Of a DNA stretch of 64,000 nucleotides, positions 98 to 63,976 are shown piece by piece. The translations under genes and the position numbers were made by a program. The notes beneath the pieces were generated by a model. The model was given only the letters and a program-made list of their open reading frames with translations. It was not told the DNA's origin and made no database searches. Source of the DNA: an uncultured virus (IMG/VR IMGVR_UViG_3300042545_002012). Its lineage: Duplodnaviria > Heunggongvirae > Uroviricota > Caudoviricetes. The stretch lies in IMG/VR virus record IMGVR_UViG_3300042545_002012. One strand, 5' to 3'. The first letter of the stretch is position 1; each line of letters starts with the position of its first letter.

Positions 98-775
98 TTA
101 TGATGGCACAGAGTAATACACCAAGACTCTAGCAGCTCCAGCACTAGCGCCACCTGCTGCGTAAGTAGCGATCAAAGCTTCACTAGCCGCCGCCTCTCCA
201 GGATTCGTTTCGTAAACATCTTTAGCGATGCCTTGCAAGACGTTTTGAGACGAACCCATATATTTAGAGGTAGTGCCAGCAATCCCCACGGTTACGTTAG
301 CAGTGCCATTAAAAGGCGTATCAATAACGATTTGGATTTTATGGATTACGGCATTAGCTGGAGTCGTAAACAGTGTTAATGGTGAAGACGTACCAAAAGC
401 TAGCGAAGTGGTATCAACCGCCATTTTGTCGGCAGATCCGCCCACCCCAGCCCATGTTAAATTACCACTGCCATCCGTCTGCAAATACTCAGATGGAGAT
501 CCGTCAGTTGTAGGCAGTGTCAGCGTGTAGCCAGCCGCCATACCAGTTGCAGGACGATTGATTGTAATAGACCAATCCGCGCCTGTATTAGCAGCGTCAG
601 CGTTGATAATCAGACCAGTGTTGCCAGTTGTTTCAAATTGGCTTGCTTGAACCTTTACGTCGGCATTATCAGCAGCATTACGAGCAGCAATCCCACCCGT
701 AATATTTTTCCAAGCATTTACGCCTACGCGAAAAATGCTTTCTGTCGTACCTTTTAGATCTTTAAACAGCCCCAT
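98..775 (-). CDS. Putative virion structural protein (fibre/decoration-like)
   Basis: Gly/Thr/Ala-rich; fibre-type motif YTLTLPTTDG...LQTDGSGNLTW; downstream of the capsid gene in the same direction. Confidence 0.6.
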   Translation of the reverse strand: MGLFKDLKGTTESIFRVGVNAWKNITGGIAARNAADNADVKVQASQFETTGNTGLIINADAANTGADWSITINRPATGMAAGYTLTLPTTDGSPSEYLQTDGSGNLTWAGVGGSADKMAVDTTSLAFGTSSPLTLFTTPANAVIHKIQIVIDTPFNGTANVTVGIAGTTSKYMGSSQNVLQGIAKDVYETNPGEAAASEALIATYAAGGASAGAARVLVYYSVPS

Positions 776-784
776 TTCTTTTTC

Positions 785-1186
785 CTATTCGTAATAAACA
801 ATAACAACGCCTGATCCTTGAGTAGCGCCCATACCAGTATTAAGAGTTAGCAAAATATCGGTATTTGACGCATATTTATAAAACGGGGTCGTTGCGTAAA
901 CATCCGTAGAAAGCGGATTATTTTGTCCTGTAGTCATTAATCTCTGAGTGTTGCCACTATCACCTACAGAAATAGTAGAAACGACATTAAAGGCAACATC
1001 AAAAACAATTTCAACCTGAGTAATCCGTTGCCCTGCCGTCAATGCATAGATCGTCTGTGTAGTCACATCGCCATAACTAAAATTTATGGATTTTTGCTTA
1101 GCTGATACGCCAGTGTTATTAATCTGGATTGGTGCAGATTTAATAATTCGTGTTGGCGAGTTAAGGACTTTAACTATTTGCGTCAT
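785..1186 (-). CDS. Putative structural protein, paralogous to the C-terminal domain of 98..775
   Basis: ITQVEIVFDVAFN..ISVGDSG aligns by eye with IHKIQIVIDTPFN..VTVGIAG. Confidence 0.55.
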   Translation of the reverse strand: MTQIVKVLNSPTRIIKSAPIQINNTGVSAKQKSINFSYGDVTTQTIYALTAGQRITQVEIVFDVAFNVVSTISVGDSGNTQRLMTTGQNNPLSTDVYATTPFYKYASNTDILLTLNTGMGATQGSGVVIVYYE

Positions 1187-9070: not shown

Positions 9071-9907
9071 TTATTTCTTGGTAAATACCATCCCATATTC
9101 GTTAGGTTTATCAGGTATTTCAATATTTTGCTTTAGGATTAATTTGTTGCTTTTAAAAGAAGAGTAATCCACCTCATGTTGCCATCTACCCCATTTTTGG
9201 ACAATTTTTGTCACATCAGGATGTTGATCTTTCAGGCTTTTAGCCATCAAATAACGCCCATCGGTTTTACCGTCAAGTTTGTATAACTCTTCTGTGTTTC
9301 CGCCTTTGACTGTCATTGTCGCAATTTTATCAGCCAGAAAAGCACAAAAAAGAATCGTACACCATCCGTCTTTTAATGCCCTTAAAGACAAATCTGTATC
9401 TTCATTGTACCGACCTCTCCATCTGTAGGGTATTTGGTTGTTAATCAGTATGCAACTATATATACGAGTATTTAAAATTAATGGGTTACATTTCTTTTTT
9501 CTTGGAACAAACATTTCATACTGAAAACCAGAAATAGCTACATTTTTATACCTCTCACATAAATCTTCAGCTGCATAAAATATAGTGCCATCAGCAACCC
9601 TGTATTTTATATTTTTGTTTAACCTATAAAAATCTCTAATATTGTCATCTAATATCCAATGCCTTTTATAACCTCTAGAGATAGAATCATCCCATACCCA
9701 ATTCCTAGCAGGGATCGATCCTTGCCCTAAATTGCTAAATGGTAATACTTTTATTTTTTCAGGATTAATCACAGAAGCATATTGATCGTATTCCTGCGGT
9801 TCAATGACAATATGATATGGAATATTTTTCTGCTCCAAGGCTTTACTTGTATGCCTTGATTCGTGGCGACCTTTAGAAATAATATATACAGGATATCTAG
9901 GATTCAT
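9071..9907 (-). CDS. GT-A-fold glycosyltransferase-like protein (TET-associated GT / GREB1-like family)
   Basis: YPVYIISKGR, ARNWVWD, HWILDDNI (DxD-like), YSCILI, YNEDTDLSLR and GGNT motifs. Confidence 0.8.
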   Translation of the reverse strand: MNPRYPVYIISKGRHESRHTSKALEQKNIPYHIVIEPQEYDQYASVINPEKIKVLPFSNLGQGSIPARNWVWDDSISRGYKRHWILDDNIRDFYRLNKNIKYRVADGTIFYAAEDLCERYKNVAISGFQYEMFVPRKKKCNPLILNTRIYSCILINNQIPYRWRGRYNEDTDLSLRALKDGWCTILFCAFLADKIATMTVKGGNTEELYKLDGKTDGRYLMAKSLKDQHPDVTKIVQKWGRWQHEVDYSSFKSNKLILKQNIEIPDKPNEYGMVFTKK

Positions 9908-12197: not shown

Positions 12198-12908
12198 CTA
12201 AAGCGATCGCGTCTTTACGTTTAACTGCGTTCTGATTTCTGGCAATTTTGCAACATAGCTAACCAAATCTAGCAAGCGATTACCACGCTTAGCAGCGATC
12301 ACAGCCTCACATGCTGCGTACTCACTGATGCTCTTAGCTAATTTGTCGCTTCGATAATTACCAGAATTAATTTCAGTTTTGCTAAATCCCATAGCCATAA
12401 GCTCTTCATATCGTGTGAGCAAATGAGTAAAGGCAGATCGGTAAATGTGCAACGTATCAAGCTCAAATTGCACTGGGAAATAATCGCGATTAGTTGCCTC
12501 TAACGCCCAAGGCAAAATATGTTTTTGCCCTGATTCCGCAATGCAAATAGTAAAGGGCGGCTTTGGCGGATCAAGCAACCAAGTCCTGATTTGAGCGCGT
12601 GTGGGGAGGCGATCAACTATTTCTAGCGTGTTCCCCCCCTCAGTATGTTGATTACCAAATTTAGGATAAGAACCATACGCATCATCAGCAGAAAGGAGCC
12701 ATGACCAGCCCCTAGCAAATAATGTGCTGTATTTTCCCTTCGCTTCATTCCAATAAAAAGCCCTTAACGGAATCACCCATGCACAGCGATCGCATAGATG
12801 CTTTGACTCAGGACATCTAGCGCTACTATGTGCAGTGAATGAATCTTTGAGAACTAACGGTTTATCAGCGTTAGGGGCGGCGCAAAGGTAGCAGTAATTA
12901 TTATTCAT
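12198..12908 (-). CDS. csf1: Type IV(-B) CRISPR-associated large subunit Csf1 (Cas8-like)
   Basis: Zn finger CYLC...KDSFT...LCDRC, LLDPPKPPF.I.IAESGQKH, GFSKTEI.SG.Y and RG..LLDL; ATG at 12908, alternative TTG at 12950. Confidence 0.78.
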   Translation of the reverse strand: MNNNYCYLCAAPNADKPLVLKDSFTAHSSARCPESKHLCDRCAWVIPLRAFYWNEAKGKYSTLFARGWSWLLSADDAYGSYPKFGNQHTEGGNTLEIVDRLPTRAQIRTWLLDPPKPPFTICIAESGQKHILPWALEATNRDYFPVQFELDTLHIYRSAFTHLLTRYEELMAMGFSKTEINSGNYRSDKLAKSISEYAACEAVIAAKRGNRLLDLVSYVAKLPEIRTQLNVKTRSL

Positions 12909-12975
12909 GGCAAAAGCCACCCTATAGGATGGCTGATTAAGTTTATTCAATGTCCGTGGTTACCGCCTCTAGGCA

Positions 12976-15935: not shown

Positions 15936-17743
15936 TGAGTAACATTTTTGATGTTTTTGACTTTGGTAAAATCCGATGGATGCAAAACATTTGGGTTTTT
16001 AAAGATGGCAATAAAAAGCCCGTCCTTACCCTTGGATCTGGTGAGCCTATCATCAGTAAAGACGGATTGAAAGTATTGATTAAGGGCGCTTCTACCGTAT
16101 GTCGCATCAAAGATTTTTCTGGCATATATCCCGAAAGCTCAAAACCCAATACTTTTAATATCCCCAAAAAAGTATGCCAAGCTTGCGAACATTTTGATAA
16201 TGGATATTGCAAGCCCAAAATCGAATTAAACCGCACTGAGTTTAATGAAAATCTGGCTAAAGTTTCAGAGAAGTTCGCAAAAAATATGAAAGAGACTTTT
16301 AGATAGAATCATGAACGACACTAACGACTATTACCTATATCAAGGCAAAATCTACCACTGCTCTGAAGTGACAGCAGAAGCTGAACTCTATGGCGCTGAT
16401 AGCTCCTATGGCTATGGTAAAACACTCTTATTCCTAGATGAGATTGGCGAATATGTTGATGCCAATGATTGCGTACAAGTTGCGCCTAATTTCTGGCAAC
16501 ATTTTGAGTTTTGGGTTTGCTCGGTAGTTGCAAGTTTAAATGCAAAAATCCAAGATTTGCGCCGCCCAAAATATGATGACGTGCCATTTGATGACTATGT
16601 ACCTTTTGATGATTGCGAGTTTTAAGTTATGAAAGAACTAACAGGGATTGCACTTTTTACACAAGATATTAATTGGATTGCTGCTCAGTTTCGCCCTCCA
16701 TTGATTGAAGTGCAATGCACTACAAGATATTTAGGGGATAGGGTATGGGAGGTTTCTGAAGTGACTTACCGTTATTCAAAATATGAAATCAATATTGATA
16801 ATAGCGGAGTTACGAATATTAATATTCGTATTAGTAAAATCAGAGAGCTTTGTATTAACAAAGTCATTTTCTTGAAAACTCCAAAGATTTCTATAGATGA
16901 AGCCGTCAAAATCGCTAAGCGCCTTATCAAGGCAAACAGCTTTTTATTAAGGTAATTGCAACCATGAAAAAATCATCACGCGATTACCGCGTATTCCGTA
17001 GAGCCATACCAACTTTGTTGACACATCCTGAGAAGTATAAGGAATTACAGGCTGCTATCCAAAGGATAAACGACACAATGATTGATTTAAGTCAAGCTCA
17101 AAAAGCTTTTGCAGACTTTAAATCAACTTGCGACAATCCCTCAAAAGTGAAAATCAATATCAGTATTTAATAATGAACCCAACATACGAGATCGAGAAGG
17201 AAGAAGCGCAGCCCATGATACAAGCAATCAGAAATAAGCTGATTGAATCGGGTTACAAGTGCCGTAAATTTACTAAGAGTAATGACGGATTTATTGCTAG
17301 AAATGGCGAAAACTTAGCGCGTGTTTGGTTTGATATTCGGTGTTCTGGTAAAGCTTGGATTACTTGGCGCTTTTGGTGCGATCCAAGCGATCCACTACAT
17401 CAGCTAGGGATTGATTATTTGATTGAGTCAGCGATTGTTAATTTTGGATGTAAATAGGAGAATTAATTGCATTATGAGAAAAGATGTCAAGACCGAACTA
17501 GAAGAATTAATTGATGCTCAAAAATTTTCTTTCCCTGTAAAAATATCTGTAAACGACAGAATCTCTAATGCTACCCTCATTTCTCTATGCTGGAAATTTG
17601 ACGATAGGATATATGGTTTAGATCGTAGGTTACACAGTATTGAGAATAGCTTCGATCCTCAAGCAGTGCAAACAGGAATGCTAAAAATAATTGTTGAAGA
17701 CATTACAGATTATATAAATTCACCGTATATAAATAAGCCATGA
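15932..17743 (+). other. Run of small co-oriented hypothetical genes (15932-16306, 16311-16625, 16629-16955, 16964-17170, ~17173-17457, ~17474-17743)
   Basis: Tightly packed ORFs without a recognisable family. Confidence 0.55.
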
Positions 17744-18351
17744 TGCTAATCCAATACATCATAGACGAACCGCCCAAAAACACAAGTAACGGGCGTGGCA
17801 ACTGGATACTACACCTCAAAGAAAAGCAATCACTGAAGCAAGGCGGCGCGATTGAGTCTGCTTTTGATTGGGATACCAAATCACAGTTACGCATTCACTT
17901 TCATCGCTTCGCCGCCCGAAATATGCCGATGGATGATGACGGTTTAGCGATCGCTTTTAAACCCGTGAGAGATGGCTTGATTGATAGTCTGTCTCAGTAC
18001 TTTGGGCAAAAGTTTGACGATGGTAATCAGGATTTATTCCACTTTGTTTACTCTCAATGTAAAGCGCCCGATCCTGTTTTTGCGGATACCATTGTGATTA
18101 CTATTGGCTGTATGCCAAGTCCATCACCATACAGTAGCGTGGTGATTAAATGGGGACATAATCCCATGTTGCATGACAAAGCCTCTCTCATCGCAACATT
18201 AGGCGAATTACGAGCATCTAGGATTAATGAGATAGTTGATGAGCTTAAGTGGTCAAAGATTGGAACTAAGAAAGTGGATAAACTTAAGAAAGAGTTAGTC
18301 AAAACTCAGAAAGCGATCGCGCATTGTGTAGCTGAAACTGTGTTTAATTAA
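17740..18351 (+). CDS. RusA-like Holliday junction resolvase
   Basis: PPKN.SN...W..., MDDDGL..AFKPVRDGL...DD pattern. Confidence 0.55.
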   Translation: MMLIQYIIDEPPKNTSNGRGNWILHLKEKQSLKQGGAIESAFDWDTKSQLRIHFHRFAARNMPMDDDGLAIAFKPVRDGLIDSLSQYFGQKFDDGNQDLFHFVYSQCKAPDPVFADTIVITIGCMPSPSPYSSVVIKWGHNPMLHDKASLIATLGELRASRINEIVDELKWSKIGTKKVDKLKKELVKTQKAIAHCVAETVFN

Positions 18352-18353
18352 AA

Positions 18354-18471
18354 TCCAAGAGATAGGATTTGAACCTATAACCTTCGCTTACAAGCCATTT
18401 AGTCAGTATAAGAGCTACTTATATGACATCAGAACCTTCACGATGCTCTATCCACTTAGAGCTACTCTCGG
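18354..18471 (-). ncRNA. tRNA-like RNA (Thr-UGU-like) with an ~45-nt insert in the anticodon arm
   Basis: Acceptor CCGAGAG/CTCTTGG+A, D arm GCTC-TAAGTGGATA-GAGC, T arm ATAGG-TTCAAAT-CCTAT; CTTGTAA loop remnant. Confidence 0.75.
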
Positions 18472-18476
18472 TTAAA

Positions 18477-18594
18477 GCGATCGCGTTTAGGACAAGGAGG
18501 ACGAGACTTTTAGGCGGCACGATTACAAGGCGACTATCCACACCCTAAACCTTTGGGCTTGCACCAACACTTGATCTGCTCTATGCGCGATCGC
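18477..18594 (-). ncRNA. Candidate structured ncRNA directly upstream of the tRNA-like element
   Basis: Closing stem GCGATCGCG/CGCGATCGC, T-loop-like TTGG-TGCAAGC-CCAA, GTTTAGG/CCTAAAC stem; TAATAT -10 element just upstream. Confidence 0.45.
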
Positions 18595-18632
18595 GTTTAC
18601 AATATTAGCACAAAGCTTTATCGGTTGCCATC

Positions 18633-19145
18633 GTGAAAACACCGCTTGAAATCAGAACAGCCATACTCGCTGCTATTCCCGATCTAATTGGCATCAGGTA
18701 TTTTGGCAACATTGTGCAACCCTCTATCTTGATGCTACCCGATCCCGCTCTTGAAGAGTCGGGAATGTCCTTTCCCGCGATCATTAATGGCAGTCCAGTC
18801 ATGTATCAGGGCATTGAGATTATAATTTATCGCAATCGCACCTTAGATTCGTTTGCTCCTATGCTTAATTCGGAAGTAGATTTTAGGGCTAAATCTTGGG
18901 TATTGCTTAAAGATCATGCGAGTCTAGACAACTTTAGCCTCGCTCAAATTAATGCGCTTAGATCGGTCGCAGGATTAAGCGCTATTACTCAAGAGGGGCT
19001 AGATGAGGGACTTAGTTATGCTGCTGCAAAAGTTTGCAAGTTACTGAATCTATACAAGCAGCTACCTTCCCCCACTCCCAAGAACGACCAATCTTCTCTA
19101 TTAGATTCACTTATCTTTGAGTTTGATTACGCAGGATATTTGTAA
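18633..19145 (+). CDS. Putative tail terminator/completion-like protein
   Basis: P.EIR.AI...I N-terminus and beta-rich C-terminus; isolated from other tail genes; weak call. Confidence 0.35.
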   Translation: MKTPLEIRTAILAAIPDLIGIRYFGNIVQPSILMLPDPALEESGMSFPAIINGSPVMYQGIEIIIYRNRTLDSFAPMLNSEVDFRAKSWVLLKDHASLDNFSLAQINALRSVAGLSAITQEGLDEGLSYAAAKVCKLLNLYKQLPSPTPKNDQSSLLDSLIFEFDYAGYL

Positions 19146-19161
19146 CGGAATATTACGATCT

Positions 19162-19235
19162 AAAAAATAGTTTGCTTACCCTATTGACACCTTTTACTTA
19201 GTGGTGATACTATTTTATTCATACAGACAAAACAA
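19162..19235 (+). promoter_or_regulatory. Repeated promoter/leader module, copy 1
   Basis: tttgcttacccta-TTGACA(19184)-18 nt-TACTAT-tttattcatacagacaaaacaaa. Confidence 0.8.
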
Positions 19236-19258
19236 AAACAATAACACAGGAAAACGCA

Positions 19259-19751: not shown

Positions 19752-19797
19752 TATTACACATCAGGGGCTTAACCGCCCCTCATTCAACTAACATTCT

Positions 19798-19888
19798 AAA
19801 AAATAATTTGCTTACCCTATTGACACCTTCCATCTAGTACTGATACTATTTTATTCATACAGACAAAACAAAGGAGTAAACGACCATG
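19798..19888 (+). promoter_or_regulatory. Repeated promoter/leader module, copy 2
   Basis: TTGACA(19820)ccttccatctagtactgaTACTATtttattcatacagacaaaacaaaggagtaaacgaccATG. Confidence 0.85.
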
Positions 19889-20137
19889 AAATTAGCTAAC
19901 GCGATCAAAAAACTAACAACTAACGGGTTTGAAGTTACAACAAGCGCTCACACTCTCCAAGCCAAGAAAGGGAATCAAATTGTAGGTTGTGCAATAAGCA
20001 GAGATGGATCGGCTAATTCTTTTTATACCAAAAACGCTGATCAGCATTCAGACGTGCAGAGAGATTATTTTGTTGAAAGATGGCATAACAATATATCGCA
20101 AGCAATTCAGTTTGTTAATAGATACGACAAAGCCTAA
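19886..20137 (+). CDS. Hypothetical protein
   Basis: Directly after promoter module 2 and its RBS. Confidence 0.7.
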   Translation: MKLANAIKKLTTNGFEVTTSAHTLQAKKGNQIVGCAISRDGSANSFYTKNADQHSDVQRDYFVERWHNNISQAIQFVNRYDKA

Positions 20138-20994: not shown

Positions 20995-21060
20995 TTGACA
21001 CCTTCCATCTAGTACTGATACTATTTTCATACAGACAAAACAAAGGAGTAAACGACAATG
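20995..21060 (+). promoter_or_regulatory. Repeated promoter/leader module, copy 3
   Basis: TTGACAccttccatctagtactgaTACTATtttcatacagacaaaacaaaggagtaaacgacaATG. Confidence 0.85.
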
Positions 21061-21348
21061 CAAACACAAATTAACTGCTATTTCGCCCACGCATGGGACT
21101 CAGAAACTCACCCCGATCTAGCTGACAAGAAAGCGGCGATCGCACTGGCGAAGAGTTTATCCCCAAATGTCAAAAGTTTTGAGTACGAAGGTAATCAGGA
21201 AGACGGCTTTACCTTTTACTTCACTGAGATTGTGACTGTGACGGTAGACTTTGAGGATGGCGACTGTATCAGCTATTTTGATGAAGTGCAAAATGCACAG
21301 CCACTTATCGCAGGTGGCGAAATGACAACGGCTCGTAAAGCTAAATAG
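21058..21348 (+). CDS. Hypothetical protein
   Basis: Directly after promoter module 3. Confidence 0.7.
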   Translation: MQTQINCYFAHAWDSETHPDLADKKAAIALAKSLSPNVKSFEYEGNQEDGFTFYFTEIVTVTVDFEDGDCISYFDEVQNAQPLIAGGEMTTARKAK

Positions 21349-21371
21349 ACAAAACAAAGGAAAGTAACACG

Positions 21372-21722
21372 ATGGAAACTCAATCACTTAAACACATTGA
21401 ATATTTTGAGTCTCGATACAAACGCCACTATGACAAATATATGCAAGCTATGACAGATTTTTCTGTTGGATGCCTGCAAGATGAACAGATTCTTAAAGCG
21501 ATGGCTTTCTGTGAATGTCAAAGGCTTGGCAGGTATCTTAGAGAAGATGTTTTGACCAGCCCTAATTGTAATGACGAGCTTAAAAAAGCTAGAGCTTCCG
21601 TAGTTTCTAGGATTCACGATTTTGGGATCTCAGATAGATTGCCAGATATAAATGATCGAGTTAACAGGATCGTCACTAGAGACTGCCTTGATTTACTAAA
21701 CGATTTACTCACTAACGAATAG
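21372..21722 (+). CDS. Hypothetical protein
   Basis: Variant leader agacaaaacaaaggaaagtaacacg-ATG; terminator at 21744-21777. Confidence 0.65.
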   Translation: METQSLKHIEYFESRYKRHYDKYMQAMTDFSVGCLQDEQILKAMAFCECQRLGRYLREDVLTSPNCNDELKKARASVVSRIHDFGISDRLPDINDRVNRIVTRDCLDLLNDLLTNE

Positions 21723-35695: not shown

Positions 35696-35845
35696 CCTTG
35701 TTATTACGCTCAGGAAAAGCAGGTTTAAATAGTTGTCCTCTATCGTCCTTGTTATTACGCTCAGGAAAAGCAGGTTTAAATAGTTGTCCTCTATCGTCCT
35801 TGTTATTACGCTCAGGAAAAGCAGGTTTAAATAGTTGTCCTCTAT
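35696..35845. repeat. 51-bp tandem repeat, about 3 identical copies
   Basis: ccttgttattacgctcaggaaaagcaggtttaaatagttgtcctctatcgt starting at 35696, 35747 and 35798 (third copy 48 bp). Confidence 0.95.
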
Positions 35846-36074
35846 AGGAGTAGATTCTCTCTCGCTCCATGAATTTAAATATAGTTGATTACGTTAGTAA
35901 TGTCAACTATATTTTAAAAATAATTTTGCCCAACAAAAAAGACGATCATGCGATCGCCTTCAAACTCTCAAAAAATCATTACAAATCCACAAATCTCAGC
36001 TTTTCGATTCTCCGCTCATTAGGATCTAGATCAGCCAAATTTTTAACGCAATCAAAATATAGCATAGAGAGGAG

Positions 36075-36265: not shown

Positions 36266-36787
36266 CTAGGCTAAAAAATCATTCACATCCAAATACTCAC
36301 AGCCCAGATTTTGCGCAAAGATGCGATCGCTGTCTCTACCCTCAGCATAGGCGGGGTTGCCAGAAAGATCTCCTATGTAATGGGTGATCTGGCCAAGCCC
36401 ATAATGATTAAGATACACGTTGGCGGAGTCTCCCAAGCCTATATTAGGCTTTCTGAAGTATGGGGCAATCGCTAACTGCTCTGTCCATTCGTCTGCCCAA
36501 AAAAACTTAAACCAGCAACTTTCCCCTTCATCAGGGCAAAAGAAAGCCCCGATAAAATTAGGCTGCTGCGCCATGAGCCAATCAAATTGAGCTTGTACCA
36601 CTTTGAGTGTGGTATAGCCGCGATCAATACCAGCTTGATTACTGATAATGATCGAACGAGGCGGTACTTTGGCTAGTACCTCTTTGATAAGGGGCATCTC
36701 AGCGCCCTTGTAGTTTTTCGGGTGACTGGCAGCGAAATTGCCTAGCTTACCCACCAATACTCCATCTCTGTCAAATGCAAAAAGCAT
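36266..36787 (-). CDS. HAD-superfamily phosphatase (polynucleotide 3'-phosphatase/GmhB-like)
   Basis: AFDRDG, ISNQAG, RKP and YIGD...SD..FA.N.G motifs. Confidence 0.8.
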   Translation of the reverse strand: MLFAFDRDGVLVGKLGNFAASHPKNYKGAEMPLIKEVLAKVPPRSIIISNQAGIDRGYTTLKVVQAQFDWLMAQQPNFIGAFFCPDEGESCWFKFFWADEWTEQLAIAPYFRKPNIGLGDSANVYLNHYGLGQITHYIGDLSGNPAYAEGRDSDRIFAQNLGCEYLDVNDFLA

Positions 36788-37170
36788 ATTTTTTTTACCT
36801 CTAAAACTAACCCTCTGAAACTTCCAAATCCAAACCAAGATCTTTGATCCTAGTTTTCAAAGCATGGCTGTCACACCATGCTCCGACAAGCTCATGCTCA
36901 TCGTTAAAATTTTCTTCGCAATCTGCAAAGAATTCTGGTTGGTATGCGGATACTACGAAGTATCCGCAAGTGTTCCCCTCCATATCTTCTTCCCAATACC
37001 CGAACAATTTTTTTGTTATTTGCTTGTCCCCTGTTTTTTATATGCTTAACCTTGAATATAATATTAAGCGCTTAAATATTATTTGTCAAGTACTATTTAC
37101 AACTAAATTGCTGCAAACTATTAGCAAGCTTAAATAAAAAAGAGTTCTATCTTATTGATAGAACTCTTTT

Positions 37171-38064: not shown

Positions 38065-38799
38065 ATGGCTGTTGGCGACTTAACACTCGTATATTTTGGG
38101 CGTAGCTACACATTTACTTTTAGTGGTAGCGCCATAACTCCACTACTGCAAGTATTTGCGGTTAATGACATCGTGCGCTTTACTACCACAGGCACATTGC
38201 CAACTGGATTAGCGCTAAATACTAGCTATTATGTGGTCAGTGTAGGCGCAACGATTACCGTATCAGCTACGCAGGGGGGAAGCGCAATAAGCTTAAGCGG
38301 TGGAAGTGGTACGCACTCGATCCGCGTTTATCTGAGTGTTGTATTCAGGAATTTTAGTTCTGATTCTCCCCCGCCCCGCCAAAGTTCTCGGTTATCAGGA
38401 AATGGGACTTTTAGCGTAAACGGAAATTTCATCGATACGGGCATTAGTTTTGAAGATCCGCAACAATACAATATTCAAGCAAAAGTTAGTATCGCTGATT
38501 CACTAAAGTTAAGCGCAATGTGGTCTACAGCTAATAATATAAGGCGTGAAGCTCAGACTCTAACAGGTTCACCATACTTAGAATTAACTGATGAGATTAC
38601 ACTTTATTTTGAAGAGGGGAAAACATCGTCAACTAAAACGCGTTCATCTGTTGGCATTCCATTCCAGCGAAACGGCGGGGTAAATTATTACCCTAAGTTA
38701 CAGGTAAAAATGCCTATTGAGCCAACGTTTAGCCCTGACACGGGGGTTGGTAATGTGATGGCAGTGTTTGAGTTGCAAGAGACAGGGGTGAAGATATGA
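38065..38799 (+). CDS. Tail/baseplate (distal tail-like) protein
   Basis: F.TTGTLPTGL..NT.YYV insertion module; C-terminal FELQE; first gene of the tail-tip block. Confidence 0.55.
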   Translation: MAVGDLTLVYFGRSYTFTFSGSAITPLLQVFAVNDIVRFTTTGTLPTGLALNTSYYVVSVGATITVSATQGGSAISLSGGSGTHSIRVYLSVVFRNFSSDSPPPRQSSRLSGNGTFSVNGNFIDTGISFEDPQQYNIQAKVSIADSLKLSAMWSTANNIRREAQTLTGSPYLELTDEITLYFEEGKTSSTKTRSSVGIPFQRNGGVNYYPKLQVKMPIEPTFSPDTGVGNVMAVFELQETGVKI

Positions 38800-39638
38800 T
38801 CGCACCTAATAGCATTATTAACGGTGATTGCTTAGAGGTAATGAAGGATATAGACGATCGCTCTATTGACTGTATAATCGCAGATCTGCCTTATGGAATC
38901 ACCGCTTGCAAGTGGGATTTAGTCATTCCCTTCGATCTCCTATGGGAGCAATACAAGCGAATCATTAAACCTAATGGCGCGATCGCCTTGTTTGGTTCGC
39001 AACCGTTTACCAGTGCGCTTGTGATGAGTAATCCTAAGTGGTTTAAGTATGAGTGGATTTGGGAGAAAAACAAAGGCTCTAATTTTGCTTCTATTAAATA
39101 CCAACCAATAAAAGCCCATGAAAATGTATTGATTTTTGGCTCAGGTAGAGTTAATTATTATCCAATTAGGGAAAATAGATCGCCGCTAAGTTTAAAAAGA
39201 GATCCTATTGGAAACCAAAGAACAAAAAAGCCTAAACTTAGCGCTATAAAGTCGTCTCCACTAAACGGAATTTTTAAAATAGATTACACCTATTCTATTG
39301 ACGGGACTAGGAACCCTTTCTCATACCAAAGGTTTAGCTTAGATTACAGTTTTGATCACCCCACTCAAAAGCCCGTAGCCCTAATCGAATACCTAATCAA
39401 AACCTACACCCAAGAAGGTGAGCTAATCCTAGACAACACCGCAGGGAGTGGCACATTAGCGATCGCCGCAATCAACACCAACCGCCAATACATCTGCATT
39501 GAAAAAGACCTGCAATATTTTGAGGTAATGCGTAACAGGATTGCTAACCATGATCCGTTCGCACCTGTAAAAACTAAAAAACCAAAAGCAGCACCAAAAG
39601 GGCAGCTAACTTTATTTGATGGAGGGTTAGCTGTATGA
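38796..39638 (+). CDS. Amino (N6-adenine/N4-cytosine) DNA methyltransferase, beta class
   Basis: GDCLE, DLPYG, HPTQKPV.L and LDNTAGSGT. Confidence 0.92.
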   Translation: MIAPNSIINGDCLEVMKDIDDRSIDCIIADLPYGITACKWDLVIPFDLLWEQYKRIIKPNGAIALFGSQPFTSALVMSNPKWFKYEWIWEKNKGSNFASIKYQPIKAHENVLIFGSGRVNYYPIRENRSPLSLKRDPIGNQRTKKPKLSAIKSSPLNGIFKIDYTYSIDGTRNPFSYQRFSLDYSFDHPTQKPVALIEYLIKTYTQEGELILDNTAGSGTLAIAAINTNRQYICIEKDLQYFEVMRNRIANHDPFAPVKTKKPKAAPKGQLTLFDGGLAV

Positions 39639-55028: not shown

Positions 55029-55779
55029 CCACACACTCACAGGCGGCGCAATGCCGCCTAAACATTATGCAAGAACTACTACAACAAGTTCTATACCTCA
55101 CTATTAAGATTGCGGTTGCGAGGAGTTAATTATGATCGGAGTATATATTTTTACTGTGATTTGTTGTCTAGTGTCTCTATGTATTTCTTCTTTTACCCTT
55201 GGCTACACTATTGGAAAAAGAAGCAGATGAGCGATAAGAAATTCAAACTCATCCGCACCTATACCGTAACTACAGATGAGACAACATTCACACCTAAGCT
55301 AGACGTACTAAGGCTTAAGATGGAACGTCGCCAAAATGAATGCCCTAACGATGATTTTAGGATCGTAGACGAACAAGGCAACCCCGCCGAACTAGCCGAT
55401 TTTCTTGAATCAGAGCTAGCTCATCCCGTGGCTAAGGCTAAGCGGGTGAAGGAAGAGAAGAAAGAACAGTACAGGAAGGAAGTAGTCAAGAGGTTGAAGC
55501 GATGCTAAGTACAATCAAAGTATCTGTAACCGCCGCACACATCGCCGCCGCAAGATATCCTAGTAAGTCACCATTAGCTCTTGCCCTGCGAGAGATATAT
55601 TCCGAGAATGCTCACGTTACACAACACTACGCATATATCGGCAACAAAGTTTATCAGCTACCAGAAGCAGCAATTGCATCAGAGCGTTGTTTTGATTATT
55701 TAGCAAAAGGCGGTTCTAGCCAAGGTGAGATTGCTGAGAATATTTTTGCTTACGAGTGCGAGCTAGTGGAGTTGGTGCA

Positions 55780-56799
55780 ATGAGTAAAAAAACATTTACA
55801 GCATTGTTTGCAGGTGGAGGTGGTGCAGATTTAGGAGCGATCGCCGCAGGACTAGAACCATGTGAATCAGTGGAATACGATCCTGCGATCGCTGAAGTTC
55901 ACAAAGCAAATATAAACGGCAAAATGCATGTTGCCAATATCCTTGATTGCGATCCGTATCGCTTTGAAAAGCCTGATATCCTTCATGCTAGCCCAGTCTG
56001 TAAGCAATTCAGCACAGCTAATACTAACAAAGGCGAAGCTCAGCTTGATATCGACAGCGCCCGAAAGGTAGCAGAATTTATCCAAGTGCTACAGCCTAAG
56101 CATTTTACTCTTGAGAATGTAGAAGCTTACCGCAAATCCAAATCGTTCCATTTGATTGTTGAGATACTTCACAAGATTGGATATTTTTGCAATTGGCAAG
56201 TACTAAATGCTGCTGATTTTGGAGTGCCACAATCTCGCCGTCGCTTAATTTTAATCGCTGTTAAAGACGGCTTTATTCCTGCATTGCCACAACCTGAAAA
56301 GCATATTGGATGGTACGAGGCGATCGCTGATAAGGTTCATGATTTGCCTGATAGCAAACTGGCGGATTGGCAGTTGAAAGCTTTGCCTAGTGAGATTAGG
56401 GAGCATTTGTTGATTGATAACAGAAATAGCACACCACCAGTCACAATAAAAAACGGAAGTGAAACAGCTTTAACTCTTACAACTTCAACGACTACTAGGG
56501 ATTTAAAAGCCATCTTAATCGAAAACACAGGCGCAAGAAGCGATCGCGAACTCCAAACCCGCGCCGCCGATGAGCCGTGTTGGACATTGAGAGCAATGGG
56601 GCAGGACGGGCATTATCACAGGGCTAATGCTTTGCTAAATGCTCGTATCGTAGCTCTAGACATTGCTTGCTTAGCTCGTTTGCAGTCATTCCCTGATAAC
56701 TATCAGTGGAGTGGCAAAAAGTCGTTAGATGGCAAAATTATCGGTAACTCAGTACCACCCCTGATGTATCAAAAGATTTTGCAATCGATCATTCAATAA
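55780..56799 (+). CDS. C5-cytosine DNA methyltransferase
   Basis: LFAGGGG, SPVC..FS, ENV, ADFGVPQSRRR, RLQSFPD and IGNSVPP. Confidence 0.92.
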   Translation: MSKKTFTALFAGGGGADLGAIAAGLEPCESVEYDPAIAEVHKANINGKMHVANILDCDPYRFEKPDILHASPVCKQFSTANTNKGEAQLDIDSARKVAEFIQVLQPKHFTLENVEAYRKSKSFHLIVEILHKIGYFCNWQVLNAADFGVPQSRRRLILIAVKDGFIPALPQPEKHIGWYEAIADKVHDLPDSKLADWQLKALPSEIREHLLIDNRNSTPPVTIKNGSETALTLTTSTTTRDLKAILIENTGARSDRELQTRAADEPCWTLRAMGQDGHYHRANALLNARIVALDIACLARLQSFPDNYQWSGKKSLDGKIIGNSVPPLMYQKILQSIIQ

Positions 56800-59483: not shown

Positions 59484-59915
59484 ATGAGTGGATATTTCCA
59501 AATTGGTATCTACCAAGGCAAGACAGAACCAAATATAGGAACTTTGTGGCGAAGCGCTTACCAGTTGGGCGCTAGTGGTGTTTTTACTATCGGGAAAAGA
59601 TACAAGCATCAAGCCAGTGATACGTACAAGACCGAAAGGCAGATCCCATTAGTGAACTACCGTGACTTCGACCACTTTCTTGACAATCGTCCAGTCGGCT
59701 CTCAGTTGATTGGTGTTGAGATGGGTGGTGCTGCATTGCGTGAATTTAAGCACCCAAAGACTGCGATCTATTTACTAGGTAGTGAGGATAACGGATTACC
59801 TAACGAAGTTAGCGCCCAATGTCAGCACATTGTATCTATCGAATCTGTTAACACCGCCTCCTATAATGTGGCTGTTGCTGGTAGCTTAGTAATGTATTCA
59901 AGGATGTTTATGTAA
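59484..59915 (+). CDS. SpoU/TrmH-family (SPOUT) RNA 2'-O-methyltransferase, single domain
   Basis: NIGTL.RSA...G, LLGSE..GL and S.NVAVAGS..MY. Confidence 0.85.
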   Translation: MSGYFQIGIYQGKTEPNIGTLWRSAYQLGASGVFTIGKRYKHQASDTYKTERQIPLVNYRDFDHFLDNRPVGSQLIGVEMGGAALREFKHPKTAIYLLGSEDNGLPNEVSAQCQHIVSIESVNTASYNVAVAGSLVMYSRMFM

Positions 59916-61335: not shown

Positions 61336-61878
61336 ATGACGCTAGTTGACCACGAAATCGAAAAGCTTTGCGAAGAAAAAGGCGTTATCGTGCCATTTGA
61401 CAAAGCAATGCTTAACCCACAATCACTTGATGTGCGGATAGGCTACACGCTGAAAACTGAGAATAACTGGCTTAAGCGATGTCTAACAGGTCAAGAGTTT
61501 ACTACTCATGATTTGACCAAATACTCAGAATCAAACCCGTTTTTGGTATCGCCACTAAGTTTTATTCTGACTTGTACTTACGAGACTTTCAATATACCGA
61601 GTAATTACTCAGCAGAGTTTAGGCTTAAGTCAAGTAGAGGGCGATCAGGATGGGGGCACGTTTTGGCAGTATGGATTGATGGTGGGTTTAATAATTCAAA
61701 GCTGACCTTAGAGTTGCTAAATCACCGTATTTGGGCTTGGCAACCTATTTATCCACTTATGCGAATTGGTCAAATTGTTTTTGCTGAGACGGCTTATCCT
61801 AGGCATGATTACTCAGAAACAGGGCGGTATAACAACGATTTGGATACGCAACCAGCAAAACCAGAGAAGAGAATATAA
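61336..61878 (+). CDS. dcd: dCTP deaminase / trimeric dUTPase family protein
   Basis: LNP.SLDVR.G, T.E.F..P, KSS.GR.G, IDGGF...LTLEL.N, RIGQ.VF and Y...GRY. Confidence 0.88.
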   Translation: MTLVDHEIEKLCEEKGVIVPFDKAMLNPQSLDVRIGYTLKTENNWLKRCLTGQEFTTHDLTKYSESNPFLVSPLSFILTCTYETFNIPSNYSAEFRLKSSRGRSGWGHVLAVWIDGGFNNSKLTLELLNHRIWAWQPIYPLMRIGQIVFAETAYPRHDYSETGRYNNDLDTQPAKPEKRI

Positions 61879-63445: not shown

Positions 63446-63976
63446 ATGTATGGAATAGAAACTGAGGACAAGACTACAGCTTTAGCCAGTGCGCTTAGTT
63501 ATTGGGTTTTTCGCTGTAGAGACAAGAGTAAAAGTCCTGCCATGGGCTTAAAAACATGGGAATATTTTCAAAGCAGTATCCAAAATGCTGCTATTCCCTC
63601 TCGCAATATCGACGACTACATTGAGAATTTAGCCAAGAAGCTAATTGTTGCACACCTCAACCCAAAAGAATGGACTCGCATAATCGCGCCAAAACAAGTG
63701 GTTTTACGGGCTACTGTGAATGACGATGGCAGTATGGGAGACATTCAACAGAAAGACTGCGATCAAAATATTGATCTTTGGTGGTTGGGATGGAACGACA
63801 TTTTAGCCAAATTGAAATATACGCACGGGATAAGCGATCGCCATATTCTGAATATGTGCAAATCCAAACCTCACGTGATTACCACTTTTTGTCGCGTTCG
63901 CTTTGAAAGCGATCGCGCTTTGAATATTCCAGAAGAAACAGAAAATACTCTAGATGTAGAGGCTAATAATGCTTAA
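63446..63976 (+). CDS. Putative type IV-B CRISPR small subunit (Cas11-like)
   Basis: Helical 176 aa; W.YF...I.NAA..S..IDDY.E.L.KKL and C-terminal ...RVRFE..R pattern resemble type IV-B small subunits. Confidence 0.5.
   Translation: MYGIETEDKTTALASALSYWVFRCRDKSKSPAMGLKTWEYFQSSIQNAAIPSRNIDDYIENLAKKLIVAHLNPKEWTRIIAPKQVVLRATVNDDGSMGDIQQKDCDQNIDLWWLGWNDILAKLKYTHGISDRHILNMCKSKPHVITTFCRVRFESDRALNIPEETENTLDVEANNA

What the first reader, a model, noticed from the sequence alone, without database searches (positions are those of the whole stretch)
18354..18471. tRNA with intact acceptor, D and T arms but an ~45-nt hairpin insert in the anticodon arm
Seen on the minus strand: a 7-bp acceptor stem and canonical D and T arms. 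A 4-bp stem (TCGT/GCGA) encloses 45 extra nt containing GTCA-TATAAG-tagct-CTTATA-c-TGAC, followed by CTTGTAA (a Thr-UGU-type loop). No CCA is encoded. The insert is far too short for a group I intron. Intact pairing in every arm suggests selection on structure. Inference: a tRNA mimic (for example a decoy for anticodon nucleases or synthetases), a processed scaffold presenting a cargo hairpin, or a ligand of the array-less Csf complex.
Basis: partly seen in the sequence, partly recalled or inferred. Interest (0 to 1): 0.75.

Follow-up and report, generated by a model that had tools for sequence, protein, structure and literature searches.

The report
Hairpin-interrupted tRNA gene in a cyanophage
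A lake cyanophage's only tRNA-like gene is a threonine-type tRNA whose anticodon loop is blown up by a 45-base hairpin that nothing known can remove, so it is more likely a tRNA look-alike or a relic than a working tRNA.

Summary
ARAGORN with introns allowed makes one call in the 64-kb window: tRNA-Thr(UGU) at 18354-18471(-), 73 nt plus a 45-nt insert between the anticodon stem and loop. It makes no call in 30 shuffles.

The window is an uncultured, HIP1-rich tailed cyanophage of about 80 kb. The element sits in an intergenic slot that holds other things in relatives:
- ordinary tRNA-Pro or tRNA-Met;
- other tRNA-like units with the same acceptor stem but abnormal anticodon loops;
- a homing endonuclease in one contig.

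The interrupted gene occurs in 7 DNA sequences. The insert is 100% identical in all, in two versions that differ only in the 5' half. So there is no covariation to test. It spreads as a recombining cassette.

RNA-library contigs from two studies carry it unspliced, which is weak evidence. I found no bulge-helix-bulge motif, ribozyme match, RNA ligase, splicing endonuclease or RNase III.

My ranking:
- 0.4: a non-decoding tRNA mimic, perhaps a decoy in the conflict over tRNAs.
- 0.3: an inert relic carried along with the cassette.
- 0.15: an intron removed by host enzymes.
- The Csf idea is unsupported.

This scan has noted similar hairpin-split phage tRNAs on other DNA. Devoto et al. 2019 reported unexplained tRNA introns in Lak megaphages.

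The parts
18354..18471 (-). Whole tRNA-shaped element: a 73-nt tRNA-Thr(UGU)-type body plus a 45-nt insert
   Evidence: ARAGORN with introns allowed. It is the only call in the window, with 0 calls in 30 shuffles. The minimum-energy fold is a cloverleaf, z = -2.40.
18465..18471 (-). Acceptor stem, 5' strand CCGAGAG. C1-G72 and G3.U70 form with the 3' strand.
   Evidence: Variant B has CCAAGAG, giving A3-U70.
18445..18462 (-). D arm: GCTC / loop with GG / GAGC. RNAfold extends the stem to 6 bp.
18440..18443 (-). Outer stem of the expanded arm, 5' strand TCGT
18395..18439 (-). The 45-nt insert. It sits between the last pair of the anticodon stem's 5' strand and the first loop nucleotide. Its first bases can pair weakly with the 5' side of CTTGTAA.
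   Evidence: It is 100% identical in all 7 DNA copies. No source or second copy was found.
18402..18427 (-). Hairpin inside the insert: 10 pairs with one bulged C and a 5-nt loop. Its apex repeats the 9-mer AGTAGCTCT of tRNA positions 6-14.
   Evidence: 1 match in the window at up to 3 mismatches, 0 expected by chance..
18388..18394 (-). Anticodon-loop-like heptamer CTTGTAA, with UGU in the anticodon position
18384..18387 (-). Outer stem, 3' strand GCGA
18362..18378 (-). T arm ATAGG-TTCAAAT-CCTAT
   Evidence: Rfam local match, 15.2 bits. Pair 49-65 covaries across the family.
18354..18361 (-). Acceptor stem 3' strand CTCTTGG plus discriminator A. No CCA is encoded, and TTTTA follows.
18477..18594 (-). 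Upstream module that always travels with the element. It is bracketed by two HIP1 sites (18587-18594 and 18477-18484) inside direct TAAACGCGATCGC repeats.
   Evidence: Identical in all 7 copies. Not significantly structured, z = -1.31.
18300..18700 (.). Approximate exchange block: zero mismatches against contig 3300042295_001683, inside flanks with roughly 10-40% mismatches per 50 nt
17740..18351 (+). 203-aa gene of unknown function bordering the slot. Its conserved 3' end is the left homology arm.
   Evidence: Only a weak RusA-type lead.
18633..19145 (+). 170-aa gene of unknown function bordering the slot. Its conserved 5' end is the right homology arm.

Best explanation
This is a phage tRNA gene of the threonine (UGU) type in which a 45-nt hairpin-forming insert expands the 7-nt anticodon loop into a long irregular arm. 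It occupies an exchangeable tRNA slot between two conserved genes of an uncultured cyanophage of about 80 kb. Related phages swap the slot's contents by homologous recombination through the conserved gene ends and HIP1-containing repeats, and a homing endonuclease is present in one relative.

Shown:
- the anatomy of the element;
- the cassette exchange;
- the lack of any recognisable splicing route;
- the presence of the uninterrupted 118-nt sequence, insert included, in RNA libraries.

Inferred:
- The RNA is made and kept with its insert.
- It retains the acceptor/T/D body that RNase P, RNase Z, the CCA-adding enzyme and tRNA-binding nucleases recognise.
- It cannot read codons, because the insert folds over the 5' side of the loop.
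- It therefore acts as a non-decoding tRNA mimic. The most plausible role is a decoy or competitive ligand for a host tRNA-directed defence nuclease, in a slot where sibling phages keep real, presumably counter-defence, tRNAs.
For: Anatomy and chance control.

The slot is variable among the 9 related viral contigs found through the flanking proteins:
- canonical tRNA-Pro(UGG), 51.2 bits;
- tRNA-Met(CAU), 58.9 bits;
- an A33 'Pro' unit with the same acceptor stem, 42.4 bits;
- non-canonical units in L024 and L021, and a 9-nt-loop unit in L011.

Family pattern:
- All 5 units with the CCGAGAG acceptor have an abnormal anticodon region.
- Their acceptor and T stems are paired in 98.6% of cells.
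- Pair 49-65 occurs as G-C, A-U and C-G.

Spread:
- The interrupted gene is in 7 DNA sequences: the window, 1 viral contig and 5 of 5 metagenome contigs holding the 3'-half 24-mer.
- Variant B has a different 5' half that still pairs 7 of 7 in the acceptor stem.
- The block is identical inside diverged flanks.

Sole tRNA-like locus: it is the only one in the window and in the 95%-complete relative G002.

RNA:
- 3 of 4 laid metatranscriptome runs have a contig on the element.
- 2 span all of it with 0 differences (X15 18342-18509, X18 18315-18502).
- There are 0 joints in 4 runs.

No splicing route found:
- 0 bulge-helix-bulge candidates;
- no ribozyme or intron family in Rfam;
- 0 of 5 related records with RtcB, Rnl2-type ligase, splicing endonuclease or RNase III.

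Precedent for phage tRNAs in counter-defence: van den Berg 2023 (abstract and Results read) and Burman 2024 (abstract read).

Two further tRNA bodies with hairpin-expanded anticodon loops turned up by accident in an unrelated 192-kb phage contig.
Against: - No copy differs in the insert, so selection on it cannot be shown.
- The identity across backgrounds can be explained by recent recombination or homing-endonuclease drive, without any benefit to the phage.
- The slot demonstrably tolerates junk: a truncated unit in L021/L029 and a malformed unit L024b.
- Variant B breaks the 27-43 pair, so the base of the expanded arm is not strictly maintained.
- The RNA evidence is from assembled contigs only. 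It gives no strand, ends or level, and DNA carry-over in the libraries could not be excluded.
- No promoter or terminator consensus lies next to the element.
- No target nuclease is identified, and the host is unknown.
- The complementary strand folds about as well (z = -2.82). Strand assignment therefore rests on the T loop, the GG of the D loop and the G.U pairs.
Confidence: 0.4

Rival explanations
1. Inert relic. A tRNA gene was inactivated by a one-time 45-nt insertion or rearrangement. It is kept only because the event is recent and the cassette hitch-hikes in a recombination-prone slot visited by a homing endonuclease.
For: - The insert and 3' half are 100% identical in all 7 copies, so there has been no time for decay and there is no covariation.
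- The identical block sits inside diverged flanks.
- An HNH homing endonuclease lies beside the cassette in L034.
- Truncated and malformed tRNA pieces occur in the same slot.
- The notional product is substandard, with a 4-bp stem and an A.A mismatch.
- Variant B weakens the stem further.
- Internal direct repeats (the 7-mer GAAGGTT and the 9-mer AGTAGCTCT) hint at a local duplication or template-switch origin.
Against: - It has been retained through at least one replacement of the 5' half that kept full acceptor pairing, and through moves into at least three phage backgrounds.
- It is the only tRNA-like gene in a slot that siblings fill with working tRNAs.
- No insert-free allele was found in any collection.
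- Similar interrupted tRNAs recur in unrelated phages.
- It is present in RNA libraries of two studies.
Confidence: 0.3
2. A real mini-intron. Host enzymes cut the 45 nt out of the precursor and a ligase rejoins the halves, giving a working tRNA-Thr(UGU). The insert would mask the anticodon loop until then.
For: - Excising exactly 45 nt restores a 7-nt loop CUUGUAA with U33, UGU and A37.
- Lak megaphage tRNAs, including a Thr(TGT), carry unexplained introns that are identical across cohorts (Devoto 2019, passages read).
- Earlier notes of this scan describe 21-35-nt hairpins in other phage tRNAs (unchecked here).
Against: - 0 bulge-helix-bulge candidates, and no ribozyme or intron model matches.
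- The insert lies at 31/32, not at 37/38.
- The product has a 4-bp stem with an A.A mismatch.
- 0 of 5 related phage records encode RtcB, an Rnl2-type ligase, a splicing endonuclease or RNase III. The Rnl1 search was uninformative, because it rang in no control genome.
- 0 joints in 4 RNA runs, while the unspliced form is present in 3. Contigs can miss rare or short forms.
Confidence: 0.15
3. An RNA-processing or regulatory element for the surrounding operon. The tRNA shape would serve as an RNase P/Z cleavage signal or stabiliser, or the minus-strand RNA would act as an antisense regulator of the two flanking plus-strand genes.
For: - The element lies antisense in a 281-nt gap inside a plus-strand gene series.
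- RNA contigs in X15 and X18 extend about 30-40 nt beyond its 5' end and 12-39 nt beyond its 3' end.
Against: - Siblings have ordinary tRNAs or nothing at this place (L010) with the same flanking genes, so the operon does not need it.
- There is no overlap with either coding region.
- Contigs give no strand.
Confidence: 0.05
4. A ligand or guide of the phage's type IV (Csf) proteins.
For: A Csf1 homologue lies at 12198-12950 (E 1e-27) and a type IV Cas11-like protein at 63446-63976 (E 1e-12). No CRISPR-like array appears among the direct repeats shown for the window.
Against: - The element is 5.4 kb from csf1.
- The hairpin occurs once in the window and in no CRISPR-like context anywhere.
- The one genome hit to its 20-mer core is in a gut Saccharofermentans MAG. 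By my estimate that is about the number expected by chance in 596 Gb.
- Relatives swap the cassette for ordinary tRNAs.
- No Cas7, Cas5 or Cas6 partner was recognised among the 29 proteins scanned.
Confidence: 0.02

Closest known systems
'Enigmatic' introns in tRNA genes of Lak megaphages (Devoto et al. [quoted passage not shown]
   Same: - Phage-encoded tRNA genes interrupted near the anticodon by short sequences that no model classifies.
- One case is also a tRNA-Thr(TGT).
- The same insert is typically identical across samples.
- The genes are only detected when bacterial tRNA finders are run in intron mode.
- No mechanism is known.
   Different: - Here the phage is a cyanophage of about 80 kb, not a 540-kb Prevotella megaphage.
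- The interrupted gene is its only tRNA-like locus.
- The insert is a plain 45-nt hairpin at 31/32, not a possible nested tRNA.
- No insert-free allele was found.
- The gene sits in an exchangeable cassette slot.
- I did not see their Supplementary Table 6, which lists the intron sequences and positions and may bear on this comparison.
Group I intron-containing cyanobacterial tRNA genes (tRNA-Leu(UAA), tRNA-fMet); review PMC4033280, passages read
   Same: A cyanobacterial setting, with an interruption in the anticodon region of a tRNA gene.
   Different: - Group I introns need a catalytic core of roughly 100 nt and about 10 helices. This insert is 45 nt with one hairpin.
- No Rfam intron model matches.
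- The position is 31/32.
Archaeal and eukaryal protein-spliced tRNA introns (bulge-helix-bulge); review PMC4033280, passages read
   Same: A short insert that pairs with part of the anticodon loop and extends the anticodon arm.
   Different: - No bulge-helix-bulge geometry can be drawn (0 candidates).
- No splicing endonuclease is found in 0 of 5 related phage records. In the control genomes it was found only in the four archaea.
Phage tRNAs as counter-defence: T5 tRNA-Lys variant against PARIS (Burman 2024, abstract read) and anticodon-loop mutations of phage tRNAs (van den Berg 2023, abstract and Results read)
   Same: Phage-borne tRNA genes whose anticodon loops depart from the norm, held at an accessory locus that differs between close relatives.
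   Different: - Those tRNAs still decode and differ by point changes.
- This one carries a 45-nt insert that should prevent decoding.
- No cognate host nuclease is known here.
tRNA-mimicking non-coding RNAs such as the tmRNA tRNA-like domain and bacterial or phage YrlA/Y RNAs
   Same: RNAs that keep acceptor, T and D features of tRNA but have no working anticodon arm.
   Different: - ARAGORN's tmRNA search finds nothing and no such Rfam family matches.
- In YrlA the ends lie in the anticodon-stem equivalent (recalled), which is the opposite topology.
Free-standing homing endonucleases in phage tRNA gene regions, for example T4 SegB (recalled, not read)
   Same: An HNH/NUMOD4 endonuclease gene lies beside the cassette in L034, and there is sharp mosaic exchange of the tRNA region between relatives.
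   Different: The window itself has no endonuclease gene in the slot, and the target site is unknown.

Membership tests
Canonical elongator tRNA (Rfam RF00005) | 7-bp acceptor stem, D arm with GG, T arm with a TTCRANY loop | tested here: met
   The T arm matches the Rfam model locally.
Canonical elongator tRNA (Rfam RF00005) | 5-bp anticodon stem closing a 7-nt loop with U33; score at or above the 29-bit gathering score | tested here: not met
   - As encoded, the loop is 52 nt.
- The only Rfam match is the T arm at 15.2 bits, and there is no match at gathering level.
- After notional excision the stem has 4 pairs plus an A.A mismatch.
Group I intron in a tRNA gene | Intron with a catalytic core (P3-P9) of about 100 nt or more; Rfam Intron_gpI match | tested here: not met
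   The insert is 45 nt with one hairpin. No Rfam match at E up to 10.
Protein-spliced (bulge-helix-bulge) tRNA intron | Two 3-nt bulges on opposite strands, separated by a 4-bp helix, at the exon-intron borders | tested here: not met
   0 candidates in a scan of all registers, requiring 4/4 central, at least 2/3 outer and at least 2/3 inner pairs.
Protein-spliced (bulge-helix-bulge) tRNA intron | A splicing endonuclease and an RNA ligase available | tested here: inconclusive
   - 0 of 5 related phage records have PF01974, RtcB or PF09414.
- The Rnl1 search rang in no control.
- The host genome is unknown, so host enzymes could not be checked.
Lak-type 'enigmatic' phage tRNA introns (Devoto 2019) | Phage tRNA gene, detected only in intron mode, with a short unclassifiable insert by the anticodon | tested here: met
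   Phage context.
Lak-type 'enigmatic' phage tRNA introns (Devoto 2019) | The same insert is identical across samples | tested here: met
   7 of 7 DNA copies are identical in the insert.
Lak-type 'enigmatic' phage tRNA introns (Devoto 2019) | Alleles with and without the insert exist, and these define the excision point | tested here: not met
   No insert-free allele of this tRNA was found:
- viral contigs: 2 contigs hold the 3' T-arm 24-mer, 1 with the insert and 1 unrelated;
- metagenome contigs: 5 of 5 carry the insert;
- genome contigs: 0.
Small self-cleaving ribozymes (hammerhead, twister and others) | Match to an Rfam model; conserved catalytic core | tested here: not met
   - No such family at E up to 10.
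- The insert contains CUGAUG and UAAA, but by my reading the G12 and A9 equivalents and stems I and III cannot be placed.
- The RAGATH-12 match is at chance level (14.8 bits against 75, E 5.8).
tmRNA | tRNA-like domain plus a tag reading frame | tested here: not met
   ARAGORN with -m reports 0 tmRNA genes.
Type IV CRISPR RNA or Csf ligand | A repeat-derived hairpin, repeated in an array or next to csf genes | tested here: not met
   - A single copy in the window.
- No CRISPR-like array among the direct repeat families shown for the window.
- The element is 5.4 kb from csf1.
Phage attP carrying part of a host tRNA gene | A 3' fragment of a host tRNA next to an integrase gene | tested here: not met
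   - The tRNA body is full length.
- No integrase family appears among the 81 of 100 ORFs scanned with Pfam.
- The 24-mers of both halves are absent from 185,579 species' genomes.

The most novel reading that the evidence does not exclude
These cyanophages carry a family of RNAs with a tRNA body: a constant acceptor/T/D frame with C1-G72 and A73. The anticodon arm of this frame is a freely replaceable module, either hairpin-expanded, lacking U33, or with a 9-nt loop. The RNAs do not decode. They act as decoys or inhibitors of host tRNA-directed immune nucleases, and recombination and homing endonucleases trade them between phages as anti-defence cassettes. The same logic would explain the unexplained hairpin inserts in tRNA genes of many unrelated phages.
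Probability: 0.3. Interest if true: 0.8.

Novelty: new variant of a known kind. Interest (0 to 1): 0.55.

Why it matters
Short inserts in phage tRNA genes that cannot splice themselves have been in print since 2019 without an explanation. This scan keeps meeting them.

This case is unusually tractable and informative:
- The phage genome is small.
- The interrupted gene is the phage's only tRNA-like locus.
- Sibling phages provide natural swaps at the same place: a real tRNA-Pro, a real tRNA-Met, or nothing.
- The phage encodes none of the enzymes proposed for cutting and rejoining.
- RNA libraries hold the uncut form.

Together these points shift the question from how the insert is spliced to whether it is meant to be spliced at all.

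If the mimic reading is right, it adds a new kind of weapon to the phage-host conflict over tRNAs. If the relic reading is right, it shows how homing and recombination can spread a broken gene through a phage population.

Tried and rejected
- Named phages. A 3-kb query gave no match. The 146-nt query gave only generic T-arm matches covering at most 27% of the query. The L002 pair gave no match. The terminase is below 40% identical to any named phage.
- Donor of variant B's 5' half. 0 viral and 0 genome contigs.
- Origin of the insert. Short-word BLAST against the window and all fetched loci gave only chance 9-13-mers. The 26-mer is in 1 viral contig, the same relative. The 20-mer core is in 1 unrelated gut MAG.
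- Gapped pattern. I replaced it with a plain 24-mer.
- Hammerhead reading of CUGAUG...UAAA, rejected by hand and by Rfam. RAGATH-12 is at chance level.
- Alanine identity through G3.U70 plus A73. I considered this and dropped it, because variant B has A3-U70.
- Target-site duplication reading. The 7-mer GAAGGTT flanks a 47-nt segment, but removing that segment would leave a tRNA without an anticodon arm, so I judged this less parsimonious.
- Upstream module as a second tRNA. ARAGORN calls it only at a 70-80% threshold, and its fold is not significant.
- Promoter and terminator consensus. Nothing lies next to the element.
- Parts of the locus without RNA contig cover. These include 17900-18195 in all four runs and the element itself in X17. 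They say nothing either way.
- Protein atlas. Two requests were unanswered. The repeat for the 203-aa protein gave only sub-threshold leads.
- Earlier notes. None exist for this window or for look-alike sequence.
- Whole genome. None is held for the window.
Full report
**Observation.**
On the minus strand, 18471 to 18354, the sequence reads as a tRNA:
- a 7-bp acceptor stem CCGAGAG/CTCTTGG with G3.U70;
- U8 A9;
- a D arm GCTC/GAGC with GG in the loop;
- a 4-bp stem TCGT/GCGA;
- a T arm ATAGG-TTCAAAT-CCTAT;
- discriminator A and no encoded CCA.

Between TCGT and the heptamer CTTGTAA lie 45 extra bases (18395-18439). They contain a 10-pair hairpin at 18402-18427.

ARAGORN in its default mode finds no tRNA in the window. 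Rfam finds nothing at its gathering thresholds. A permissive scan sees only the T arm, at 15.2 bits against a gathering score of 29. With introns allowed, ARAGORN calls tRNA-Thr(tgt), 73 nt, with a 45-nt intron at position 32-33.

That setting gives exactly one call in the whole 64-kb window and none in 30 dinucleotide-preserving shuffles, so this is not a chance match. The RNA minimum-energy fold is the cloverleaf with one long composite arm, at -34.5 kcal/mol, z = -2.40. In that fold the first bases of the insert pair weakly with the 5' side of CTTGTAA.

After notional excision the anticodon stem has only four pairs, one of them G.U, plus an A.A mismatch.

**Context.**
The window has 41.5% G+C and 87 HIP1 sites. 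It encodes these recognised functions:
- a GP7-type capsid protein, a portal-associated DUF4055 protein, a T4-type large terminase, a tail-completion protein and a 1318-aa tape measure;
- RecT and two DNA methylases;
- a TET-associated glycosyltransferase and a dCTP-deaminase-like protein;
- a small SpoU-type RNA methyltransferase (59484-59915);
- a PNK3P/HAD-type phosphatase (36266-36838).

It is therefore a tailed cyanophage. Its terminase is below 40% identical to that of any named phage. Complete relatives are 75-80 kb long with direct terminal repeats.

The element lies antisense in a 281-nt gap between two plus-strand genes of unknown function, 17740-18351 and 18633-19145. I scanned 81 of the 100 non-overlapping ORFs of 70 aa or more with Pfam. 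None is an integrase, an RNA ligase or a splicing enzyme.

**The slot in relatives.**
The two flanking proteins retrieved 9 distinct viral contigs. At the same place they hold different contents:
- A canonical tRNA-Pro(UGG) in 2 contigs (Rfam 51.2 bits).
- A canonical tRNA-Met(CAU) in 2 contigs (58.9 bits), together with a truncated tRNA-like unit and small ORFs.
- A 'Pro(UGG)' unit with A33 in place of U33 in 1 contig (42.4 bits).
- Two non-canonical tRNA-like units in 1 contig. Neither program calls them.
- No tRNA at that spot in 2 contigs.
- The interrupted Thr-type gene in 1 contig.

One of the two contigs with no tRNA at that spot, L011, has two 51-nt repeat units in the slot. It also has another family member with a 9-nt anticodon loop about 0.9 kb away.

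Five units share the acceptor stem CCGAGAG/CTCTTGG, and four of those five have discriminator A (L011's unit has CTCTTGA and G). All five have an abnormal anticodon region. I aligned six units: both variants of the interrupted gene, L024a, L030, the L011 unit and L038. The truncated L021 unit was left out. In these six:
- acceptor and T stems are paired in 98.6% of cells;
- pair 49-65 occurs as G-C (3), A-U (2) and C-G (1);
- pair 3-70 occurs as G.U (4) and A-U (2);
- 9 of the 12 pairs never vary, and 12 of 500 shuffles reach the observed covariation score.

The family therefore evolves as tRNAs do, but the evidence is thin.

By my reading of the sequence, a different 115-kb phage contig holds an ordinary long-arm tRNA-Tyr(GUA) with the CCAAGAG/CTCTTGG acceptor.

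**Copies of the interrupted gene.**
Exact-pattern scans found it in one viral contig. They also found it in 5 of 5 metagenome contigs that hold the 24-mer spanning the loop and T stem. They found it in no genome of 185,579 species. With the window that makes 7 DNA sequences.

In all 7, the insert, the 3' half and a roughly 100-nt upstream module between two HIP1 sites are 100% identical. Three copies (variant A) are identical throughout. Four copies (variant B) have a different 5' half of about 32 nt, reaching from the HIP1 site to the CGTG at the insert border. In variant B:
- the acceptor is CCAAGAG, giving A3-U70 and 7 of 7 Watson-Crick pairs;
- the D loop is different but the D stem is the same;
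- G27 breaks the 27-43 pair.

Both variants occur in one metagenome (L033 and L034). I found no donor for the B half and no insert-free allele.

Against the viral contig, the window shows a mismatch-free block of about 400 nt (roughly 18300-18700). It sits inside flanks with roughly 10-40% mismatches per 50 nt. The outer edges of the slot are conserved in all relatives.

In L034 a 180-aa NUMOD4 + HNH_3 homing endonuclease with a C-terminal helix-turn-helix lies directly upstream of the cassette.

I read this as cassette exchange by homologous recombination through conserved arms and HIP1-containing repeats, possibly helped by homing. The phage has RecT. It is not slow purifying selection, and it means the insert itself offers no covariation test.

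**Is the insert removed?**
Six RNA-library runs hold part of the locus, and I laid four of them.
- Three have a contig on the element.
- Two span all of it, insert included, with no difference (X15 18342-18509, X18 18315-18502).
- In X18 this is the only piece of the 1.1 kb that is covered.
- No run shows a joint that skips the 45 nt.

These are assembled contigs. They give no strand, ends or level, they can miss rare or short forms, and DNA carry-over could not be tested. The evidence is weak: it favours transcription and gives no sign of splicing.

Other tests also find no splicing route:
- No bulge-helix-bulge geometry can be drawn (0 candidates).
- No intron or ribozyme family matches.
- In 5 related phage records there is no RtcB, no Rnl2-type ligase, no splicing endonuclease and no RNase III. 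These records include one that is 95% complete and carries the identical element, and two that are complete.
- The Rnl1 search rang in no control genome and is uninformative.

The host is unknown, so host enzymes remain possible. In the window and in the 95%-complete relative, the interrupted gene is the only tRNA-like locus.

**Origin of the insert.**
It occurs once in the window. It has no partial copy in any fetched sequence and is not a CRISPR repeat or dispersed element. Internally, the hairpin apex repeats the 9-mer AGTAGCTCT of tRNA positions 6-14. The 7-mer GAAGGTT stands both at the start of the insert and after the 3' strand of the stem. That hints at a local duplication or template switch but proves nothing.

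**Comparison with what is known.**
[quoted passage not shown] This insert is far too small for that.

Devoto et al. 2019 reported Lak megaphage tRNAs with introns, including a putative tRNA-Thr(TGT). They noted that the same intron is typically identical across cohorts and gave no mechanism (PMC6784885, passages read). That is the closest published kind.

Earlier notes of this scan describe hairpins of 21-35 nt in tRNA-Thr, tRNA-Phe and other tRNAs of unrelated phages, and a family of tRNA-Glu mimics. These are unchecked AI notes that I did not verify. They led me to the Devoto paper, and they propose a cut by a double-strand RNA nuclease followed by rejoining by a phage ligase. This phage has neither enzyme.

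- a canonical tRNA body with a 62-nt insert at the same stem-loop junction;
- a neighbour whose 7-nt loop is replaced by a 30-nt inner hairpin, and which shares 27 nt of the 3' half with the window's element.

Phage tRNAs are established or proposed counter-measures to tRNA-cleaving immunity (Burman 2024, abstract; van den Berg 2023, abstract and Results).

**Verdict.**
The anatomy is real and the cassette behaviour is shown. What the RNA does is not shown. My ranking:
- 0.4: a non-decoding tRNA mimic that is kept unspliced.
- 0.3: an inert relic spread by recombination and homing.
- 0.15: a mini-intron removed by host enzymes.
- 0.05: a processing or antisense role.
- 0.02: a link to the Csf proteins, which I consider unsupported.

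The Csf1 homologue at 12198-12950 is real, but nothing connects it to this element.

Noticed in passing
window 12198-12950 (-) and 63446-63976 (+): A Csf1 (type IV Cas8) homologue (E 1e-27) and a type IV Cas11-like protein (E 1e-12) in a phage. No CRISPR-like array appears among the direct repeat families shown for the window, and no Cas7, Cas5 or Cas6 was recognised among the 29 proteins scanned.
   Followed up: partly
window 35696-35848; L011 slot: Three tandem copies of a 51-nt unit, 96-100% alike. Two closely similar units fill the tRNA slot of the relative L011, so this repeat also moves between loci. Its function is unknown (iterons?).
   Followed up: no
window 19159-19255, 19795-19891, 20995-21063, 21333-21377: A repeated promoter-like module (TTGACA, 16-18 nt, TACTAT), followed by a shared leader and ribosome-binding site, stands in front of successive small plus-strand genes.
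   Followed up: no
window 59484-59915 (+) and 36266-36838 (-): A 143-aa SpoU-type RNA 2'-O-methyltransferase, with weak similarity to TrmL, TrmJ and RlmB, and a PNK3P/HAD-type 3'-phosphatase. Both fit a phage that tampers with or repairs RNA, but no ligase accompanies them.
   Followed up: partly
window 9071-9907 (-), 55756-56799 (+), 38796-39638 (+), 61336-61878 (+): A TET-associated glycosyltransferase, a C5 cytosine methylase, an N6/N4 methylase and a dCTP-deaminase-like protein. Together they suggest modified phage DNA.
   Followed up: no
L034:551-1093 (-): A 180-aa NUMOD4 + HNH_3 homing endonuclease with a C-terminal helix-turn-helix, directly upstream of the cassette in one metagenome contig. 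Its 3' end abuts a stray ...CTCTTGGA tRNA end fused to a piece of the 170-aa gene.
   Followed up: partly
L002 2990-3237 (-), contig of 192,712 bp: Two adjacent tRNA-shaped genes with encoded CCA. One has a perfect body and a 62-nt insert at the 31/32 junction (ARAGORN: Tyr(gta), but with G33). In the other the anticodon loop is replaced by a 30-nt inner hairpin flanked by a 9-nt direct repeat.
   Followed up: partly
L024 605-703 and about 725-800 (+): Two tandem tRNA-like units that neither ARAGORN nor Rfam calls. The first has the family acceptor stem, a 6-bp anticodon stem with loop AGCCATA and a long extra arm. The second has acceptor CTGAGAG/CTCTCGG and no recognisable anticodon arm.
   Followed up: no
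G005:C1:8411-8508: A 98-nt Rfam tRNA match (46.6 bits) about 4.8 kb from the slot in the relative that carries tRNA-Met. I did not inspect it.
   Followed up: no
window 18351, 18484, 18572, 18594 (run X16): Loose ends of RNA-library contigs continue into the slot variants of other relatives. Several cassette versions therefore coexist in one sample.
   Followed up: no
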